A program made the translations under genes and the position numbers. The notes beneath the pieces were generated by a model. The model saw only the letters and a list, made by a program, of their open reading frames with translations. It was not told the DNA's origin and searched no databases. A stretch of 64,000 nucleotides of DNA, taken from Nitrosopumilus sp. Its GTDB lineage: Archaea > Thermoproteota > Nitrososphaeria > Nitrososphaerales > Nitrosopumilaceae. Positions 14,826 through 20,178 of this stretch are shown here, in pieces. Numbering within the stretch: the stretch's first letter is position 1; each line of letters opens with the position of its first letter. Location: positions 1,888,001-1,952,000 of the forward strand of contig OZ243974.1 in the NCBI GenBank assembly GCA_965214775.1, written 5' to 3'.

Positions 14826-15464
14826 ATGGCAGATTTTTCATTTCCAATTTACGGTTTTATCAGCGTTCTGGATTATCTTGGAACGATTGCATTTGCCATT
14901 ACAGGGGCCTCAAAAGCAATCTCACACAAAGCTGACATTTTTGGAATTGTTGTTTTAGCTACTCTTGTCGGTGTTGCAGGAGGAATAATGCGCGATGTGA
15001 TATTTGGCAGATTTCCTACGGCTTTCTCTGATCCAACCTACATAAGTTTGACAGTTGCAGCCGGAATTGCCACATTCTTTCTGTATTCAAAATTAAAAAA
15101 TCAAATGAATACATGGCTGGTTTTTGACGCTATAGGCCTGGGCGTGTTCTCAATTATTGGCGCGTCAATTGCCTACCAGATTGTAGGCTTTAGTTTCCTT
15201 CCAATGCTGTTTGCAGGGGTTTTGACTGCTGTTGGCGGTGGAATCTTAAGGGATGTCTCTGTTAGGGAAATTCCAATTGTCTTTGTAAAGGAAGTATATG
15301 CAGTTGCCAGTGTCGTGGGGATCACAATCTTCTATGTGGCGTTGTCTTTTGGAGTTGGGATTCAGGCAGCGTCCGTAATTGGGATTGTTTTGGCAACGGG
15401 AATCCGATTACTTGCAATGAAGTACAAGTGGAATCTTCCCAAAGCCAAAGGCACTGCTGATTAG
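14826..15464 (+). CDS. TRIC cation channel family protein (UPF0126)
   Basis: FAITGA, GGIMRD and GGGILRD repeats. Confidence 0.9.
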   Translation: MADFSFPIYGFISVLDYLGTIAFAITGASKAISHKADIFGIVVLATLVGVAGGIMRDVIFGRFPTAFSDPTYISLTVAAGIATFFLYSKLKNQMNTWLVFDAIGLGVFSIIGASIAYQIVGFSFLPMLFAGVLTAVGGGILRDVSVREIPIVFVKEVYAVASVVGITIFYVALSFGVGIQAASVIGIVLATGIRLLAMKYKWNLPKAKGTAD

Positions 15465-16363
15465 GCTGGCGTGTAATCTTTTGCCTGACCTGCCAAAGAT
15501 CTTGCTTGGGCATCTGCTTTTTGTAAAATCTGTTCTCTGGTCTCATGGGTCATAAATCCTGATTCCACAGACAGCGAACGAGCATATTGTGATGCCTTTG
15601 ATAGAATTTGTGAAATATTTTCAGGTGTAACATATGCTGCTTCAATAGACAGTGAAACTGCTTCCTGGTGAGCCTGTACGAATTCGCCTCTGATTTTATC
15701 CACATCGATGACCATTTCGTCTGATGTATACTTCAAACCGTCTTCTAGTGCAGCAAATAATGAAATCCCTGCTTCTACCGGTTTGATGTCCAACTTGCCT
15801 AAAATCGATGCTAATTTTTCGTTAATCACTTCTCCCTTTTTGACTGGCGTACTGTCTTTTGCGATCCAGATGGTTCCTTGATCAATCTTTGTGGGGATTC
15901 CGGCCTCTTTGAATTCAGTAAGCATTGGCCCTGGCGCAATCCCCGTGTTCTTTTCAGGAACAAGAACATCGGTGCTTGCAATATCTCCGCCTCTTGCATT
16001 CATCATGATCTTGTTTTTTGCAAGCAAGACGTTTAGCTTGAACGGTGACATGTTAGTGAACATAAACATACATTGGCCAGTAAGATCTTCTGACAGTTCC
16101 TTGATTCCGGGAACACCTGATGATTCGGGAGCGTCTAATGATTCAGGAGCAACCAATGATTCAAGAGCCTTCTTTGCAATTTTGTCTTTGATACTTACAA
16201 ATTCAACGTCACCTTTGAGAATCTTTCTTAATGGCAAAATTTGTGTGGAACGGACCTTTTCCATCTTGATGAGGGAAATCACTTTGTATTTTTTTGGAAG
16301 CTCTTGCAGCTGTTGATACATCTGGGCCTTTCTTTTAGGGTATGTGGTTCTATTTTCACGCAA
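15461..16363 (-). CDS. rpl10: 50S ribosomal protein L10 (P0)
   Basis: ARGGDIA, TGIAPGP, LGKLDIKP. Confidence 0.95.
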   Translation of the reverse strand: MRENRTTYPKRKAQMYQQLQELPKKYKVISLIKMEKVRSTQILPLRKILKGDVEFVSIKDKIAKKALESLVAPESLDAPESSGVPGIKELSEDLTGQCMFMFTNMSPFKLNVLLAKNKIMMNARGGDIASTDVLVPEKNTGIAPGPMLTEFKEAGIPTKIDQGTIWIAKDSTPVKKGEVINEKLASILGKLDIKPVEAGISLFAALEDGLKYTSDEMVIDVDKIRGEFVQAHQEAVSLSIEAAYVTPENISQILSKASQYARSLSVESGFMTHETREQILQKADAQARSLAGQAKDYTPA

Positions 16364-17018
16364 ATTTCTTCTTAACCTCTTGTACCTGTTTTACCGGTCT
16401 GCCCATTGTTGTTTTAATCATGACTCTCTTGATGTTTTTCTCACCGTTTGGCAGTTTCTTTTCAACTGCACTCAGGACTGCATGTGCATTGACTGCCAAA
16501 TCCGCATCTTCCATTGTCTGATCCCCGATTTTGCATGACATTGACAGTGATGCTCTTGTCCTGACCTTGATTGATGATCTGAATCTTTGCAAAAACGATT
16601 CAATGGGGGCGTTAAATGGAACCGGAGTCGGCATTTTTCCTCTTGGTCCTAACAGTTGACCTAGTGTTTTGCCAACTAACGGCATTACCTGCGTGTCTGC
16701 CAAAAAGAAATCATATCTGTTGATGAATTTTCTTGACTCCCTCTTGTTGGCTGCAAATTTTTCTAATTCTTCTGTACCTACAACTGCATCGGCGTTTGCT
16801 TGTTTTGCTTTTTGCCCCATGTCTCCTGTTGCCATGACGCATACTGTTGCAGGCGAACTGGTCTTTGGGAGCTGTACGACCTCGTTTAGGGCGAATCCTT
16901 TCTTGACGTCGATATCTTTGAAGTTCATAATCAGCTCTATTGACTGCTTGAATTTTCTCTCTTTTGCAGCGGATTTGGCCTCTTTTGCCATCTGAGCTAG
17001 CTGAGCCTCCGTAATCAT
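16356..17018 (-). CDS. rpl1: 50S ribosomal protein L1
   Basis: RKFKQSIEL, LGPRGKMP, KTTMG. Confidence 0.97.
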   Translation of the reverse strand: MITEAQLAQMAKEAKSAAKERKFKQSIELIMNFKDIDVKKGFALNEVVQLPKTSSPATVCVMATGDMGQKAKQANADAVVGTEELEKFAANKRESRKFINRYDFFLADTQVMPLVGKTLGQLLGPRGKMPTPVPFNAPIESFLQRFRSSIKVRTRASLSMSCKIGDQTMEDADLAVNAHAVLSAVEKKLPNGEKNIKRVMIKTTMGRPVKQVQEVKKKFA

Positions 17019-17077
17019 TACGAACATTTTCGAGAGAGCCTACTTAAAATCGTTTTACTTGTCCCAGTCGACAGCAT

Positions 17078-17168
17078 GCAAGAGTTTACCCCTCAGTCGA
17101 CACTACTGGCCGGAGTCTTCATGATCACGCCTGCCACACCGTATCTCAGGTGAGGGGTAAACTCGTAC
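17078..17168. mobile_element. IS66-type MITE
   Basis: IR GCAAGAGTTTACCCCTCA / TGAGGGGTAAACTCGTAC, same family as the 14340 end; GACAGCAT on both flanks. Confidence 0.75.
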
Positions 17169-17278
17169 TGACAGCATACATCAAGTACTATAACGAGTGT
17201 AGGCTGCACTTTGGGCCGGACACAGCCCGCCGCCGGACGCTCACCATGGCATTCTCGGACAAGACGGCCACAGAAGCG
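17169..17278 (+). pseudogene. IS481 transposase 3' fragment
   Basis: AYIKYYNE.RLHFG..AFSDKTATEA. Confidence 0.8.
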
Positions 17279-17302
17279 GGGTGTGACTTTAACTCTAGGC
17301 AG

Positions 17303-17437
17303 AGAGGTGATCCGAAATTAAAAGCCGTACGAATTTTTCAAGTAATTTCACAGATAACCTGTATTTTGTTGATGTTTTGAGCTGTCTTGTGCAAATTCAT
17401 TCACAAATAATCAGTCTGCTAATTTCGAATCAACTCT
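17303..17437. mobile_element. IS5(ISL2)-type MITE
   Basis: IR AGAG.TGAT.CGAAATTA; 3-bp TSD CAG; inserted inside an IS66-type terminal repeat. Confidence 0.8.
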
Positions 17438-17539
17438 CAGGGGCTAACCTATTATCTATGTGTCACGTTTATAAGGATTCCACGCGCAACGGTGTTGTGA
17501 GGCATGGCTTTGGCTGGGGGTCTCTTCCTGACAATTCCA

Positions 17540-17690
17540 AAATGAAGGTCGGACACTTATCTATACGAGGATCTCCCTCAGCACCATTCTTCATCCATTT
17601 ATCAGAACCATTCTGCAGTTACAAAACGAGGATCGCCCTCAACTAGGTTAACGCAGATTAAAGTTCTAACTGTAATGGTAATACCAACAT
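17540..17690 (-). ncRNA. putative bridge RNA/seekRNA (boundaries approximate)
   Basis: two similar internal-loop hairpins (GAGG-N5-CCTC) whose flanking segments match the target and the donor junction. Confidence 0.72.
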
Positions 17691-18821
17691 TCATTTCACA
17701 CACGCATCTCCTATGCACTGCTTGAAGGTCATCCTCTTCTTTAGCATCCAGTATGATATGCGCAGCATCTTGGATGCGGCAGCCACTGCGGCCTTGGACA
17801 TTCCCCTCTTCTTTGCAACCCTCTTGTAAAAGACAGATATCGGCGAGTCTGACGGCGCATGTCTTACGTGGCTGTGTACTGACTCCACCAGGAGCCACCT
17901 CATCATGGGGCTGCCCCTCTTTGTTATCCTTCCATGGTGGACGGTGTCTGCCGAGTTTCTCACAGACGGCACCATTCCGGCATACGCGCACAGCTTGTGT
18001 GAGTCGGCAAACCTGTCAACGCCGTCTATCTCTGATGCCATGGTCAGCGCGGTGTAGCTGCCAAACCCGGGAATCGTCTGCAGTAAGACTGCATCCGGAC
18101 TGTCGGCAACCGCGCTCTTGATGCGCATGTCAATGCCTACTATCCTGTCGTTTATGGAGTCAATTATGCTTAATTTGTCATTTATCCTAAAGTTGTCCAG
18201 ATCTCTCACCCTTGAGATCCACGGTCTGGAGAACGGATCCCCATTTACCTGTATCCTGTTTTGCAGCAGTATTGCGTGTATCTGGTTCTTTAGTACGGTC
18301 CTTGACTGTATCGTCTTTGCGCGGTGCCTGGTCAGCTGCCTGTTCTGTACAGTCTTGCCGGAGGGAACGTAGCATGCAGATATGTATCCTCCCCTGAGAA
18401 GATCTGCCAGAATCTGCGCGTCGACCTTGTCTGTCTTTTTCTTTGATGTGGCAATAACCTTGGTCTCAAACGGGTTTGAGAGGATCACGTCCCTTTTGAG
18501 ACTGTCTGAAATGAACCTGAACAGCCCGTACCATACTGAAGAGGACTCCATGACGCACTTTGCATTCTTTGGAATCCCTGCAAATATCTTCCTTATCTCG
18601 TCGTCCTTGTTGTCGACTCTTGTGTTACTCAGCATCTTGCCGCCCTTGTCCATCACCGCGACCTGGATGAAATTCTTGCGCACGTCCAGGCCGACATACT
18701 GCTGCTGTTGTTGTTGTATTTGTACAGTCTTTGATTTCACATGTATCCTCTTTTTTGCGGTAATCTGTTTGTTTGCATTGCCATTTATCTTGGCACCATC
18801 TGAATTTTGTTTTTGAGACAC
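17691..18821 (-). CDS. IS110-family DEDD recombinase/transposase
   Basis: YVGLDV, VMES, KTDKVDA, TIPGFG, AYAGMVPSVRNSA, ITKRG, VAAASK. Confidence 0.95.
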   Translation of the reverse strand: MSQKQNSDGAKINGNANKQITAKKRIHVKSKTVQIQQQQQQYVGLDVRKNFIQVAVMDKGGKMLSNTRVDNKDDEIRKIFAGIPKNAKCVMESSSVWYGLFRFISDSLKRDVILSNPFETKVIATSKKKTDKVDAQILADLLRGGYISACYVPSGKTVQNRQLTRHRAKTIQSRTVLKNQIHAILLQNRIQVNGDPFSRPWISRVRDLDNFRINDKLSIIDSINDRIVGIDMRIKSAVADSPDAVLLQTIPGFGSYTALTMASEIDGVDRFADSHKLCAYAGMVPSVRNSADTVHHGRITKRGSPMMRWLLVESVHSHVRHAPSDSPISVFYKRVAKKRGMSKAAVAAASKMLRISYWMLKKRMTFKQCIGDACVK

Positions 18822-18960
18822 ATATGGTTACATTGAAAGACCTTGATCATCAAAAAGCGCATTCCTGCGTAGTTCATACCCATATGCGCTCGGACTTTTG
18901 ATCGTCACTATAACTGGCGTCATAGAATCATTAATTTAGTATCTTTATTCACAGAATGCT

Positions 18961-20178
18961 ATGACTGCAAAGGACTACACAGGGTTGGCAGTTGGGCTGA
19001 GGGAGGCCGAGAGGCGTACAATAATGATCCTCGGCGAGGAGAATTTCGACATAGTACTGGGACTCAAGTCCCTGATGGAGGCACGCAATGTGGACGTCTC
19101 GCTAGGCATGTCCTCCCGTCTTGACGATGAACCGTACAACTCCAAACTACTCGACTGGCTGGAAGAGTTCGATGCCGAGGACGGGGAGATGGAGACTGAG
19201 GGGAAATCGCTGGCTCGCATGGGCTTGGTAAGAAGTACAAGATCCGGCGTGCTCGAGCTTACCGAGGATGGAAGAAGGGTGTATGAGGTCATAAAGACAC
19301 AGTCCGAACAAGAGGAGGTCGTGAGGGTCCAGAATCTTGCCGGGTATGTCAAGGAACTGCCAGAGGAGCATATCATGGGCATCGTGTTGCGTTATTATCC
19401 GTTCATGGCCGGCTTTGACACGAGTTCCCCCACATATGGGGATCTGATATCGGCTCGGAGGAGGCTCGCAGGATACCTGTACAGGGAGAACAAACTTGGT
19501 GTCCGGAACGCGGAGCTGATGGCAGGCACGGACGTGGAGAGCCTTCTCAAGGACGCAGGCAGGCGCCGGACCAGGCGCAACAAGTTCAGGGAACACATGA
19601 CGATCGAGGAAAGGGTCGAGGAGCTCAGCGGGGATGCCAGGGGCTTCTTACTGATGTTAAGCGAACACGACCGCAGTCTAGGATCCGCCCCCACACACAC
19701 GCATGAGAGAGGCATCATCAGATCAATATTTCCAGAGCCGTTAGGCAACGACTATGGCGAGATGCTCCCTCCGGATCCCGCATGGGACGAAATCGCCGAG
19801 GATGCAAAAGACCTTGTGGACTCGGGCCTGATAGAGGACAACATGGGTAGTGGGTTCGATCTTACTGATGACGGAAGGAAGGCGTGCGAGGTGATAAGGG
19901 AGAGGTCTGGCGAGGAGGTCCAGCAGGCCGAGAAATTCAAGGAGTTCCTTGACGGCCTGACCGAAGAGGAGTTTGCGGCCCACTCCCTGTTGGGCAGCCC
20001 ATACCGGGAGGCTAACATTCAAAAGTCCGAAGCGTTTACGAACCTGCTGGCAAAACGCGTCGAGCTTGCAGCGTCCATGTACGCAAAGAACAAGATCGAC
20101 GTCCAGAGGGCCGCGCTAATCGCAGACATGGACGTGAATGAGTTTCTCGCGTACATAGAGGAGCATGGAAGTGGGTAA
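18961..20178 (+). CDS. hypothetical protein with two tandem [wHTH + UPF0175-like] units
   Basis: repeated GL(V/I)..LT(E/D)DGR and LA..(L/M)Y..NK...A...A..DV. Confidence 0.6.
   Translation: MTAKDYTGLAVGLREAERRTIMILGEENFDIVLGLKSLMEARNVDVSLGMSSRLDDEPYNSKLLDWLEEFDAEDGEMETEGKSLARMGLVRSTRSGVLELTEDGRRVYEVIKTQSEQEEVVRVQNLAGYVKELPEEHIMGIVLRYYPFMAGFDTSSPTYGDLISARRRLAGYLYRENKLGVRNAELMAGTDVESLLKDAGRRRTRRNKFREHMTIEERVEELSGDARGFLLMLSEHDRSLGSAPTHTHERGIIRSIFPEPLGNDYGEMLPPDPAWDEIAEDAKDLVDSGLIEDNMGSGFDLTDDGRKACEVIRERSGEEVQQAEKFKEFLDGLTEEEFAAHSLLGSPYREANIQKSEAFTNLLAKRVELAASMYAKNKIDVQRAALIADMDVNEFLAYIEEHGSG

What the first reader, a model, noticed from the sequence alone, without database searches (positions are those of the whole stretch)
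17452..18830. Archaeal IS1111-type recombinase with a readable two-loop bridge RNA
Seen (minus strand): an intact DEDD transposase with its C-terminal Ser is followed by ~235 non-coding nt containing two similar modules. Loop 1 is TCTGCG-tTAACCTAgtt-GAGGgcgatCCTC-gtttTGTAAc-TGCAGA (17657-17612). Loop 2 is ATGAAG-aATGGTgct-GAGGgagatCCTC-gtATAGATAAgtgtccgac-CTTCAT (17594-17542). The element has TAA at both ends, so the empty target is TG-TAA-TAGGTTA and the circle junction is ATAGA-TAA-CCAT. Loop 1 carries TGTAA and the reverse complement of TAGGTTA. Loop 2 carries ATAGATAA and the reverse complement of ACCAT. Established: IS110/IS1111 recombinases are guided by bridge/seekRNAs, encoded 3' of the gene in IS1111. 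Inference: this is a programmable RNA-guided recombinase in an ammonia-oxidising archaeon, with a 3-nt core and loops that look duplicated from each other.
Basis: partly seen in the sequence, partly recalled or inferred. Interest (0 to 1): 0.92.

Follow-up and report, generated by a model that had tools for sequence, protein, structure and literature searches.

The report
Archaeal insertion sequence with bridge RNA
This is a recently active mobile element in an ammonia-oxidising archaeon whose recombinase appears to be steered by its own small two-loop guide RNA, a known bacterial mechanism that seems not to have been described for this group of archaea.

Summary
Window 17452-18830 (minus strand) is an intact IS110-family element. 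It has a 376-aa DEDD+Ser recombinase gene (17691-18821) followed by 239 non-coding nt with two look-alike internal loops at the stated coordinates.

Evidence that the loops are guides:
- In this genome, three variants of the loop-1 5' arm each match their own right flank.
- Across 16 elements from related archaeal genomes, the loop-1 5' arm complements the right flank (0 of 100,000 permutations reach the observed score).
- Across 12 elements, the loop-1 3' arm copies the left flank (0 of 100,000).
- Eleven further elements found with a covariance model repeat the right-flank result (12 of 100,000).
- Loop 2 tracks the element's own ends.
- Five helices are kept: 93.6% of cells paired, 16 of 24 pairs with compensatory changes.

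- The shared core is the dinucleotide TA, not TAA.
- Family-wide, loop 2 is closed by GGAUG/..UCC rather than AUGAAG/CUUCAU.
- The nearest named relative is the diverged haloarchaeal ISHvo10 type (34% identity).

Extras: deletion derivatives that carry their own retargeted guide, solo 170-bp right-end modules, and a conserved TATA-like box in the right end.

No RNA or activity data exist. Verdict: new member of a known kind.

The parts
17453..18830 (-). Whole insertion sequence, TA at each junction (18830-18829 and 17454-17453). A17452 may belong to either the element or the target.
   Evidence: Ends shared by 5 full-length copies at 98-100% identity in the same genome. Empty target sites exist without the element.
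17691..18821 (-). Recombinase gene, 376 aa from a GTG that lies 10 nt inside the left end. Catalytic residues D46, E92, D131, D134 and S290 (S290 is followed by Ala, 'SA').
   Evidence: ORF. Pfam PF01548+PF02371. NCBIfam NF033542, 229.8 bits. Aligns to IS621 and ISCro4 PDB chains. Residues located. IS621 catalytic residues are taken from PMC11208158.
17551..17670 (-). Bridge/seek RNA core, about 120 nt. An outer stem (17670-17664 with 17607-17601) encloses the target-binding loop. The donor-binding loop follows.
   Evidence: RNAalifold consensus over 15 homologues and pair counts. Covariance model R1 scores 108.6 bits here.
17612..17657 (-). Target-binding loop: closing stem 17657-17652 with 17617-17612, and inner hairpin 17640-17628.
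   Evidence: helix 2: 98.3% of cells paired, 3 of 4 pairs with compensatory change.
17644..17650 (-). Right target guide (TAACCTA), the reverse complement of right flank 17451-17445.
   Evidence: Three guide variants in this genome each match their own flank. 16-element permutation: 0 of 100,000. Held-out set.
17619..17623 (-). Left target guide plus core (TGTAA). Only G+TA is matched across this genome's copies.
   Evidence: 12 elements, 0 of 100,000. Homologues match 5-8 nt.
17551..17596 (-). Donor-binding loop: consensus closing stem 17596-17592 with 17555-17551, and inner hairpin 17579-17567.
   Evidence: helix 4: 92% of cells paired, 4 of 5 pairs with compensatory change; helix 5: 97.3% paired.
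17583..17587 (-). Right donor guide (AUGGU), complementary to the left end ACCAT at 18828-18824.
   Evidence: ATGG/CCAT and ATAG/CTAT switch together in homologues.
17557..17564 (-). Left donor guide (AUAGAUAA), a copy of the right end 17459-17452.
   Evidence: The guide changes in step with the right end: ATAGATA, ATGGATA or ATGGGTA.
18817..18824 (-). Left subterminal inverted repeat (TATGTGTC). It contains the GTG start codon.
   Evidence: longest inverted match is 8 nt. ATATGTG is kept in homologues.
17457..17464 (-). Right subterminal inverted repeat (GACACATA).
   Evidence: CACATRGRT is kept in 14 of 15 homologous loci.
17468..17474 (-). A/T-rich TATA-like box (TTATAAA) facing outward. 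It ends 13 nt before the TA core. Inferred archaeal junction promoter.
   Evidence: An A/T-rich box sits at the same position in 14 of 14 right ends printed. The promoter function is inference only.
17445..17451 (-). Right half of the target (TAGGTTA), the tip of a neighbouring repeat family.
   Evidence: The adjoining 17302-17441 has about 100 copies in the genome.

Best explanation
This is an active IS110-family insertion sequence with IS1111-like layout. Its recombinase is guided by a bridge (seek) RNA of about 120 nt encoded just after the gene.

How it most likely works:
- The RNA has two internal loops of the same design, each probably held by a recombinase dimer.
- Loop 1 reads the target. 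Its 5' arm pairs with the top strand of the right half-site. Its 3' arm has the sequence of the left half-site plus the TA core, so it pairs with the bottom strand.
- Loop 2 reads the circularised element in the same way: its 3' arm matches the right end plus TA, and its 5' arm is complementary to the left end.
- Recombination at the shared TA inserts the circle next to the tip of other repeat elements.

Shown here: protein family and catalytic residues, element ends, empty sites, conserved RNA helices, and guide/target and guide/donor covariation.

Inferred: transcription and processing of the RNA from the 3' UTR, the circle intermediate, strand-exchange chemistry (by analogy with IS621), and a TATA box in the right end that would drive a leaderless recombinase mRNA only across a right-end/left-end junction.
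For: Protein:
- Pfam and NCBIfam hits lie above their cut-offs.
- It aligns to IS621 and ISCro4 (E 5e-9 and 3e-10) with D46, E92, D131, D134 and S290 in place.

Activity:
- 5 full-length copies at 98-100% identity with open frames, 1 interrupted copy and 9 internal-deletion derivatives.

Target guide in this genome:
- TAACCTA goes with a TAGGTTA flank in 5 of 5 full-length copies, allowing at most 1 mismatch.
- TGATGTA goes with a CAACATC-type flank in 7 of 7 derivatives of the main type.
- TGACCTA goes with a TAGGTC flank in 1 copy.

Empty sites:
- 5 for the first target.
- 10 for the second, of which 7 read G-TA-C.

Across genomes:
- Right guide, 16 elements: cognate sum 95 against 57.2 +/- 4.2 for permuted pairings, 0 of 100,000.
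- Left guide, 12 elements: 72 against 41.2 +/- 4.0, 0 of 100,000.
- Held-out set of 11 elements found by the covariance model: 5 of 11 have at least 7 contiguous nt; sum 66 against 44.8 +/- 4.4; 12 of 100,000.
- A further solo RNA module in this genome (1100965) matches its flank over 7 nt.

Structure:
- 24 pairs in 5 helices, 93.6% of cells paired against 32-48% when partners are slid.
- 16 pairs have changes on both sides; 0 of 500 shuffles reach four of the five measures (9 of 500 for further pair types).

Layout:
- The guide order (top-strand match 5' of the bottom-strand match) is the one reported for IS1111-type seekRNAs (PMC11187229 section 9).
Against: - No RNA run holds the sequence, so transcription is untested. 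The MFE of the 249-nt region is ordinary (z = -1.0; 36 of 200 shuffles fold as well).
- No Rfam family matches.
- In this genome the left flank is conserved only as G+TA, a very short left guide.
- Weak right-guide matches (5 nt or fewer) occur in 8 of 16 training elements and 6 of 11 held-out elements. These may be decayed copies or wrongly placed ends, but that was not shown.
- The serine is followed by Ala rather than Gly, which is conserved in IS621 as G242.
- The structure tested was derived from the same alignment.
- The related elements are not fully independent of each other.
Confidence: 0.9

Rival explanations
1. The recombinase recognises target and ends as DNA only. The two modules in the non-coding region are subterminal protein-binding sites, and their likeness to the flanks is coincidence or a trace of past insertions.
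For: No transcript evidence was obtained. The fold energy is not exceptional. The element has subterminal inverted repeats that a protein could bind.
Against: Guide segments change together with the flanks in elements that have different targets. The helices keep pairing through changes on both sides in 16 of 24 pairs, which DNA binding sites would not require. Characterised relatives use RNA guides (PMC11208160, PMC11187229).
Confidence: 0.04
2. The element is a guided IS110-family member, but this copy and its family are now dead relics, so the RNA no longer functions.
For: One copy is interrupted. Several solo fragments and deletion derivatives exist. The start codon lies 10 nt from the left end, with no room for a promoter.
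Against: Five copies at 98-100% identity have full open frames. Catalytic residues are intact. Guides still match their flanks perfectly over 7 nt.
Confidence: 0.05
3. The element belongs to a separate archaeal lineage rather than to the IS1111 group proper, and its 3' RNA position arose independently.
For: The nearest named relative found is the ISHvo10 family at 33.7% identity. Siddiquee et al. call ISHvo10 a 'more diverged' IS. The ORF is 376 aa against their 330-350 aa range. The motif is SA rather than SG/TG.
Against: A downstream non-coding region, an 8-bp subterminal inverted repeat and the IS1111 guide order are all present. The GxxPxxxxS motif fits.
Confidence: 0.35

Closest known systems
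IS1111-group elements with seekRNA (ISEc11, ISPa11, ISKpn4; Siddiquee et al. 2024, PMC11187229)
   Same: DEDD recombinase with the GxxPxxxxS motif. Long non-coding region downstream of the gene. Subterminal inverted repeats. Top-strand match lies 5' of the bottom-strand match in the RNA. Targets are the tips of other repeats.
   Different: Archaeal host. Only about 34% identity to the nearest named IS found. SA instead of SG/TG. Both loops are simple internal loops with near-identical inner hairpins. TA core. The right end carries a TATA-like box.
IS621 / ISCro4 bridge recombinases (IS110 group; PMC11208160, PMC11208158; PDB 8wt6, 9t56)
   Same: Two-loop bridge RNA with left and right guides for target and donor. 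Dinucleotide core. DEDD plus Ser composite active-site residues.
   Different: In IS621 the RNA is encoded in the left end upstream of the gene, and the guide order is reversed. The core is CT there and TA here. Protein similarity is low (E about 1e-9).
ISHvo10-family elements of haloarchaea
   Same: Nearest annotated relatives in the plasmid collection: 33-36% identity over 85% of the protein.
   Different: Reported to have long non-coding regions on both sides. I did not examine their RNAs.
ISPpu9 modular transposition (PMC12288879, abstract only)
   Same: Solo copies of the small-RNA module occur apart from the recombinase gene, as do combined arrangements.
   Different: [quoted passage not shown] Here the solo 170-bp module is the donor loop plus the right end, and no circles were observed.
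IS4321/IS5075 (title seen in the reference list; behaviour otherwise recalled)
   Same: Insertion at a fixed position in the terminal repeat of another mobile element.
   Different: Bacterial plasmid-borne targets (Tn21-family inverted repeats). Not compared by sequence here.

Membership tests
IS110 family (DEDD recombinase elements) | N-terminal DEDD RuvC-like domain plus C-terminal Tnp domain | tested here: met
   PF01548 at residues 43-187 and PF02371 at 246-323. NF033542, 229.8 bits against a cut-off of 140.
IS110 family (DEDD recombinase elements) | Catalytic D, E, D, D and the conserved Ser of the Tnp domain | tested here: met
   D46, E92, D131, D134 and S290 align with IS621 D11, E60, D102, D105 and S241. 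The residue after the Ser is Ala, not Gly.
IS110 family (DEDD recombinase elements) | No terminal inverted repeats at the tips and no target duplication beyond a short core | tested here: met
   Only TA is shared at both junctions. Empty sites read G-TA-C.
IS1111 group | Longer non-coding region downstream of the recombinase gene | tested here: met
   239 nt downstream against 9 nt upstream of the GTG. Criterion from PMC11187229 section 6.
IS1111 group | Subterminal inverted repeats of 7-17 bp | tested here: met
   8-bp perfect repeat, 18817-18824 with 17457-17464. Length range from PMC11208160.
IS1111 group | Top-strand target match lies 5' of the bottom-strand match in the RNA | tested here: met
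   The 5' arm of loop 1 complements the top strand of the right flank. The 3' arm copies the top strand of the left flank. Rule.
IS1111 group | Recombinase clusters with the IS1111 clade; length 330-350 aa | tested here: inconclusive
   No ISfinder reference set was available. The nearest named IS is ISHvo10-like at 33.7% identity. The ORF is 376 aa from the first GTG, or 349 aa if the in-frame GTG at codon 28 is used (my reading).
Bridge / seek RNA | Two internal loops, each with two guide segments that covary with target and donor | tested here: met
Bridge / seek RNA | The RNA is made, binds the recombinase and is required for recombination | not testable with these tools
   No RNA run was listed. 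The contig-only runs gave nothing on this.

The most novel reading that the evidence does not exclude
A lineage of bridge-RNA recombinases has adapted to archaeal gene expression and diversifies its guides within one genome.
- A BRE/TATA-like box in the right end would fire across the circle junction. The transcript would start at the GTG 10 nt inside the left end, giving a leaderless recombinase mRNA.
- Short non-autonomous derivatives carry their own retargeted bridge RNA and borrow the recombinase. The guide, rather than the enzyme, would be the unit that evolves and spreads.
- Such a native programmable recombinase could seed a genetic system for ammonia-oxidising archaea. It would also give an archaeal comparison for the proposed IS110-to-Nop5 link.
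Probability: 0.45. Interest if true: 0.62.

Novelty: new member of a known kind. Interest (0 to 1): 0.45.

Why it matters
Bridge and seek RNAs were established in bacterial elements in 2024. Archaeal IS110 recombinases are known to exist: 662 were counted in 10.1101/2024.06.21.599552. In the held library I found no paper that pairs 'bridge RNA' with Nitrososphaer* or Thaumarchaeota.

- This family gives a clean natural experiment. Several guide variants sit in one genome, each at its own target, and empty sites are available.
- To my knowledge (recalled, not checked here), ammonia-oxidising archaea lack routine genetic tools. A native compact RNA-guided recombinase with a readable code is therefore a practical lead.
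- The guide-carrying deletion derivatives and the solo right-end modules bear on how such elements are parasitised and how half-site recombination shapes genomes.

It is not a new mechanism.

Tried and rejected
- Rfam 15 over 17300-19000 at E up to 10 gave only two chance-level hits elsewhere and none on the RNA.
- The single-sequence MFE fold predicted loop 1 but not loop 2, and z was only -1.0. I therefore relied on comparative evidence.
- The look-up of sequencing runs (kind rna) listed no RNA holder: 5 runs from 2 studies, none on record as RNA. This says nothing about expression.
- Read laying on 4 contig-only runs showed no joint across 18831/17452 (no empty site, no circle). Contigs break at these repeats. 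One joint skipping 17784-18645 in one run looks like a deletion derivative.
- I considered TAA as a 3-nt core and rejected it. The second target's empty sites read G-TA-C. The third base at the right junction varies among homologues.
It can form in this copy, and one homologue (L029) shows what looks like a compensatory change by eye. The family consensus instead picks GGAUG/..UCC.
- I looked for C/D-box-like motifs near GGAUGAAGA. The CUGA upstream is not conserved, so I dropped the idea.
- The ORF at 17150-17380(+) hits rve_2 only at E 0.18, below the cut-off. It is not evidence of a transposase remnant.
- A conserved module of about 16 nt lies about 50 nt downstream of loop 2 and partly resembles the left end. 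I could not settle what it is.
- Supplementary files were not opened. Supplementary Table 5 of PMC11208160 and the supplementary figures of PMC11187229 may already list archaeal or ISHvo10-type RNAs.
- Papers and what I saw of them: passages of PMC11208160, PMC11208158, 10.1101/2024.06.21.599552 and 10.64898/2026.10.21.760802; the outline and sections 6, 9 and 13 of PMC11187229; abstracts and outlines only of 10.64898/2026.08.31.748434 and PMC12288879.
Full report
WHAT IS THERE. On the minus strand of the window an ORF runs from 18821 to 17691 (376 aa, GTG start). It carries the two Pfam domains of IS110-family recombinases: PF01548 at residues 43-187 and PF02371 at 246-323. It scores 229.8 bits on NCBIfam NF033542, whose cut-off is 140. 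Against solved structures it finds only ISCro4 (9t56, E 3e-10) and IS621 (8wt6, E 5e-9). In that alignment D46, E92, D131, D134 and S290 (located) stand at the positions of IS621 D11, E60, D102, D105 and S241. Those are the residues shown to be essential in PMC11208158 (passages). The motif is G-x-x-P-x-x-x-x-S-A: Ala replaces the usual Gly in 10 of the 13 homologous loci where the motif was found, and SG occurs in 3. After the stop codon come 239 non-coding nt.

ENDS, COPIES, TARGETS. The window lies in a single-contig genome of 2.83 Mb that encodes archaeal AmoA (386 bits).
- BLAST of the element against this genome finds 5 full-length copies at 98-100% identity, all with open frames, and 1 interrupted copy.
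- It also finds 7 deletion derivatives of about 580 bp (left 290 bp joined to right 295 bp, 80-86% identity) and 2 derivatives of a second type.
- There are several solo right-end pieces as well.
- Copies share ends at window 18831/18830 and 17453/17452.
- Of the 29 left ends printed, 28 have G before the TA and 24 read GTAA. Nothing further upstream is conserved.
- The right flanks fall into classes.
- Empty sites exist. Of 8 TAGGTTAGCC sites, 3 are occupied and 5 are empty.
- Of 13 AACATCAGG-type sites, 3 are occupied and 10 are empty, and 7 of those 10 read G-TA-C.

The element therefore sits beside the tip of other repeats. The adjoining 17302-17441 has about 100 copies in the genome. The sequence shared by target and element is TA. 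Among 14 homologous right junctions the third base varies.

GUIDES COVARY WITH DNA. Within this genome:
- Full-length copies carry TAACCTA in the 5' arm of loop 1. They are flanked by TAGGTTA in 3 copies, and in 2 copies by a version with one mismatch.
- The 7 main derivatives carry TGATGTA and are flanked by CAAC(A/T)TC.
- One second-type derivative carries TGACCTA and is flanked by TAGGTC.

A search of 201 genomes of the same class found homologues in 40. In loci at 43-58% protein identity the same layout recurs: outer stem, closing stem, right target guide, hairpin, left target guide ending in TAA, closing stem, spacer, right donor guide, hairpin, left donor guide, then about 100 nt to a CACATRGRT right end.
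- The left donor guide changes in step with the right end (ATAGATA, ATGGATA or ATGGGTA).
- The right donor guide changes in step with the left end (ATGG with CCAT, ATAG with CTAT).
- Right guide against right flank, 16 elements: the summed longest exact match is 95. Permuted pairings give 57.2 +/- 4.2, and 0 of 100,000 reach 95.
- Left guide against left flank, 12 elements: 72 against 41.2 +/- 4.0, and 0 of 100,000.
- Weak cases are reported as they stand. Eight of the 16 right-guide matches are 5 nt or shorter. Among the left guides, L026 gives 3 nt and L031 gives 0.

HELD-OUT CHECK. I built a covariance model from 15 sequences (R1).
- It finds 22 places in this genome (16 at 100 bits or more, 6 partial).
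- It hits 24 of 151 sampled genomes of the class, this genome included.
- In the new loci a CACATRGRT-type right end was found for 12 of 18.
- Dropping one locus that repeats a training family left 11. For these, guides were read from the model alignment and flanks by coordinates.
- Five of the 11 have 7-10 contiguous matching nt. The sum is 66 against 44.8 +/- 4.4, and 12 of 100,000 permutations reach it.
- The other 6 show 3-5 nt. They may be decayed copies or have misplaced ends; I did not resolve this.
- A solo RNA module of another subfamily in this genome (1100965-1101086) matches its flank over 7 nt by eye.

RNA STRUCTURE. RNAalifold on 15 sequences gives five helices. Counting pairs on that structure:
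- 93.6% of 359 cells are paired, against 31.8-48.4% when partners are slid by 1-3 columns.
- 16 of 24 pairs have changes on both sides.
- 0 of 500 column shuffles reach the observed value for four of the five measures (9 of 500 for further pair types).

One caveat: the structure came from the same alignment.

The consensus closes loop 2 with GGAUG and ..UCC (17596-17592 with 17555-17551). This makes the two loops nearly equal in size.

The two inner hairpins of one element resemble each other more (mean identity 0.80) than hairpins of different elements do (0.61; 0 of 100,000 permutations).

Thermodynamics alone are unremarkable (z = -1.0). Rfam has no matching family.

PLACEMENT. The criteria given for the IS1111 group are met:
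- The long non-coding region is downstream.
- Subterminal inverted repeats of 7-17 bp are expected. Here the repeat is 8 bp, TATGTGTC.
- The top-strand match lies 5' of the bottom-strand match.

Clade membership was not tested. The nearest named element in the plasmid collection is the ISHvo10 family at 33.7% identity, and Siddiquee et al. describe ISHvo10 as more diverged. I file the element as an IS110-family member with IS1111-type architecture.

MECHANISM. By analogy with IS621 (passages of PMC11208158), the element would excise as a circle joined right end-TA-left end. Loop 2 would hold that junction and loop 1 the target. The Ser/DEDD composite sites would exchange strands next to TA. 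All of this is inference from the family.

Three further inferences from the sequence:
- The ORF starts 10 nt from the left tip, so no promoter fits upstream of it inside the element.
- All 14 right ends printed have an A/T-rich, TATA-like box ending 13 nt before the TA, often preceded by a purine-rich stretch.
- Across a circle junction this box would begin about 30 nt before the G of the GTG. That is the usual archaeal TATA-to-start spacing (recalled, not tested). It suggests a junction promoter and a leaderless mRNA.

In many homologues the stop codon lies inside the outer stem of the RNA. The RNA is therefore probably cut from the 3' UTR.

OTHER ANATOMY.
- The deletion derivatives lack a recombinase but keep both ends and a complete RNA with a different right target guide. 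No full-length copy in this genome has that guide. They would have to borrow the enzyme while bringing their own address.
- Three tandem arrangements join a right end directly to the 3' half of loop 1, at the TA of the left-guide DNA.
- Three solo pieces of about 170 bp start at that same TA.
- The DNA encoding the left target guide is by construction a copy of the left half-site plus core. These products are what half-site recombination would give. I saw only the abstracts of the IS621 half-match preprint and the ISPpu9 paper. This reading is a hypothesis.

NOVELTY.
- Bridge RNAs were predicted in 93.0% of ISfinder IS1111 elements.
- Archaeal IS110 recombinases have been counted.
- A 2026 preprint clusters IS110-adjacent non-coding sequences from bacterial and archaeal genomes.
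- Searches pairing 'bridge RNA' with Nitrososphaer* or Thaumarchaeota returned 0 papers. IS110 with Nitrososphaera returned 2 papers, which I did not open.
- Supplementary tables that I could not open may already cover this lineage.

I rate it a new member of a known kind. It is well supported by comparative evidence, and its practical interest is that the host group lacks genetic tools.

Noticed in passing
own genome G000:C1 915045-915626, 1166531-1167113, 1210808-1211391, 1787517-1788098, 2397533-2398115, 2409556-2410137, 2666224-2666813: Seven non-autonomous deletion derivatives of about 580 bp. Each keeps both ends and a full bridge RNA whose right target guide differs from that of every full-length copy. 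Each sits at the matching, different target (CAACATC-type). They look like guide-carrying parasites of the recombinase.
   Followed up: partly
own genome G000:C1 2402914-2403096, 1167111-1167279, 2397367-2397535 (tandem); 69298-69471, 114824-114990, 2249425-2249601 (solo): Right-end modules of about 170 bp (donor loop plus right end). They begin exactly at the TA inside the DNA that encodes the left target guide. They occur either alone or directly behind a complete element. This is consistent with recombination at a half-site that the guide gene itself provides.
   Followed up: partly
window 17468-17474 (minus strand) and the same position in L022-L045: An A/T-rich, TATA-like box ends 13 nt before the right tip and is present in 14 of 14 right ends. 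Across a circle junction it would lie at promoter distance from the GTG start, which is 10 nt inside the left end. In the integrated copy it points towards the ribosomal protein genes at 15461-17027 on the same strand.
   Followed up: partly
window 17078-17441: The DNA next to the element is a mosaic of short repeats with about 30 to 100 copies in this genome: 17302-17441 about 100 copies, 17078-17168 about 84, and 17168-17278 about 30. Only about 31 copies extend to the TAGGTTA tip.
   Followed up: partly
window 17485-17515 (minus strand) and homologues: A conserved module of about 16 nt (roughly YTAGYGAAAGCYATRC) lies about 50 nt downstream of loop 2. In some homologues it partly resembles the element's left end. 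Its role is unknown.
   Followed up: no
own genome G000:C1 1100965-1101086 (+): A solo bridge-RNA module of a different subfamily (108.5 bits on model R1) with its own right end and no recombinase gene upstream. Its left guide is the same as that of a homologue in another genome (L027).
   Followed up: partly
own genome G000:C1 2030489-2031484 and 2750036-2751025: Two further IS110-family genes only 36% identical to this one (open frames of 376 aa). They are a second, unrelated IS110 lineage in the same genome. Their RNAs were not examined.
   Followed up: no
window 15461-17027 (minus strand): Two ORFs of 300 aa and 223 aa look like ribosomal proteins P0/L10 and L1 by eye. They lie just downstream of the element's right end on the same strand.
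   Followed up: no
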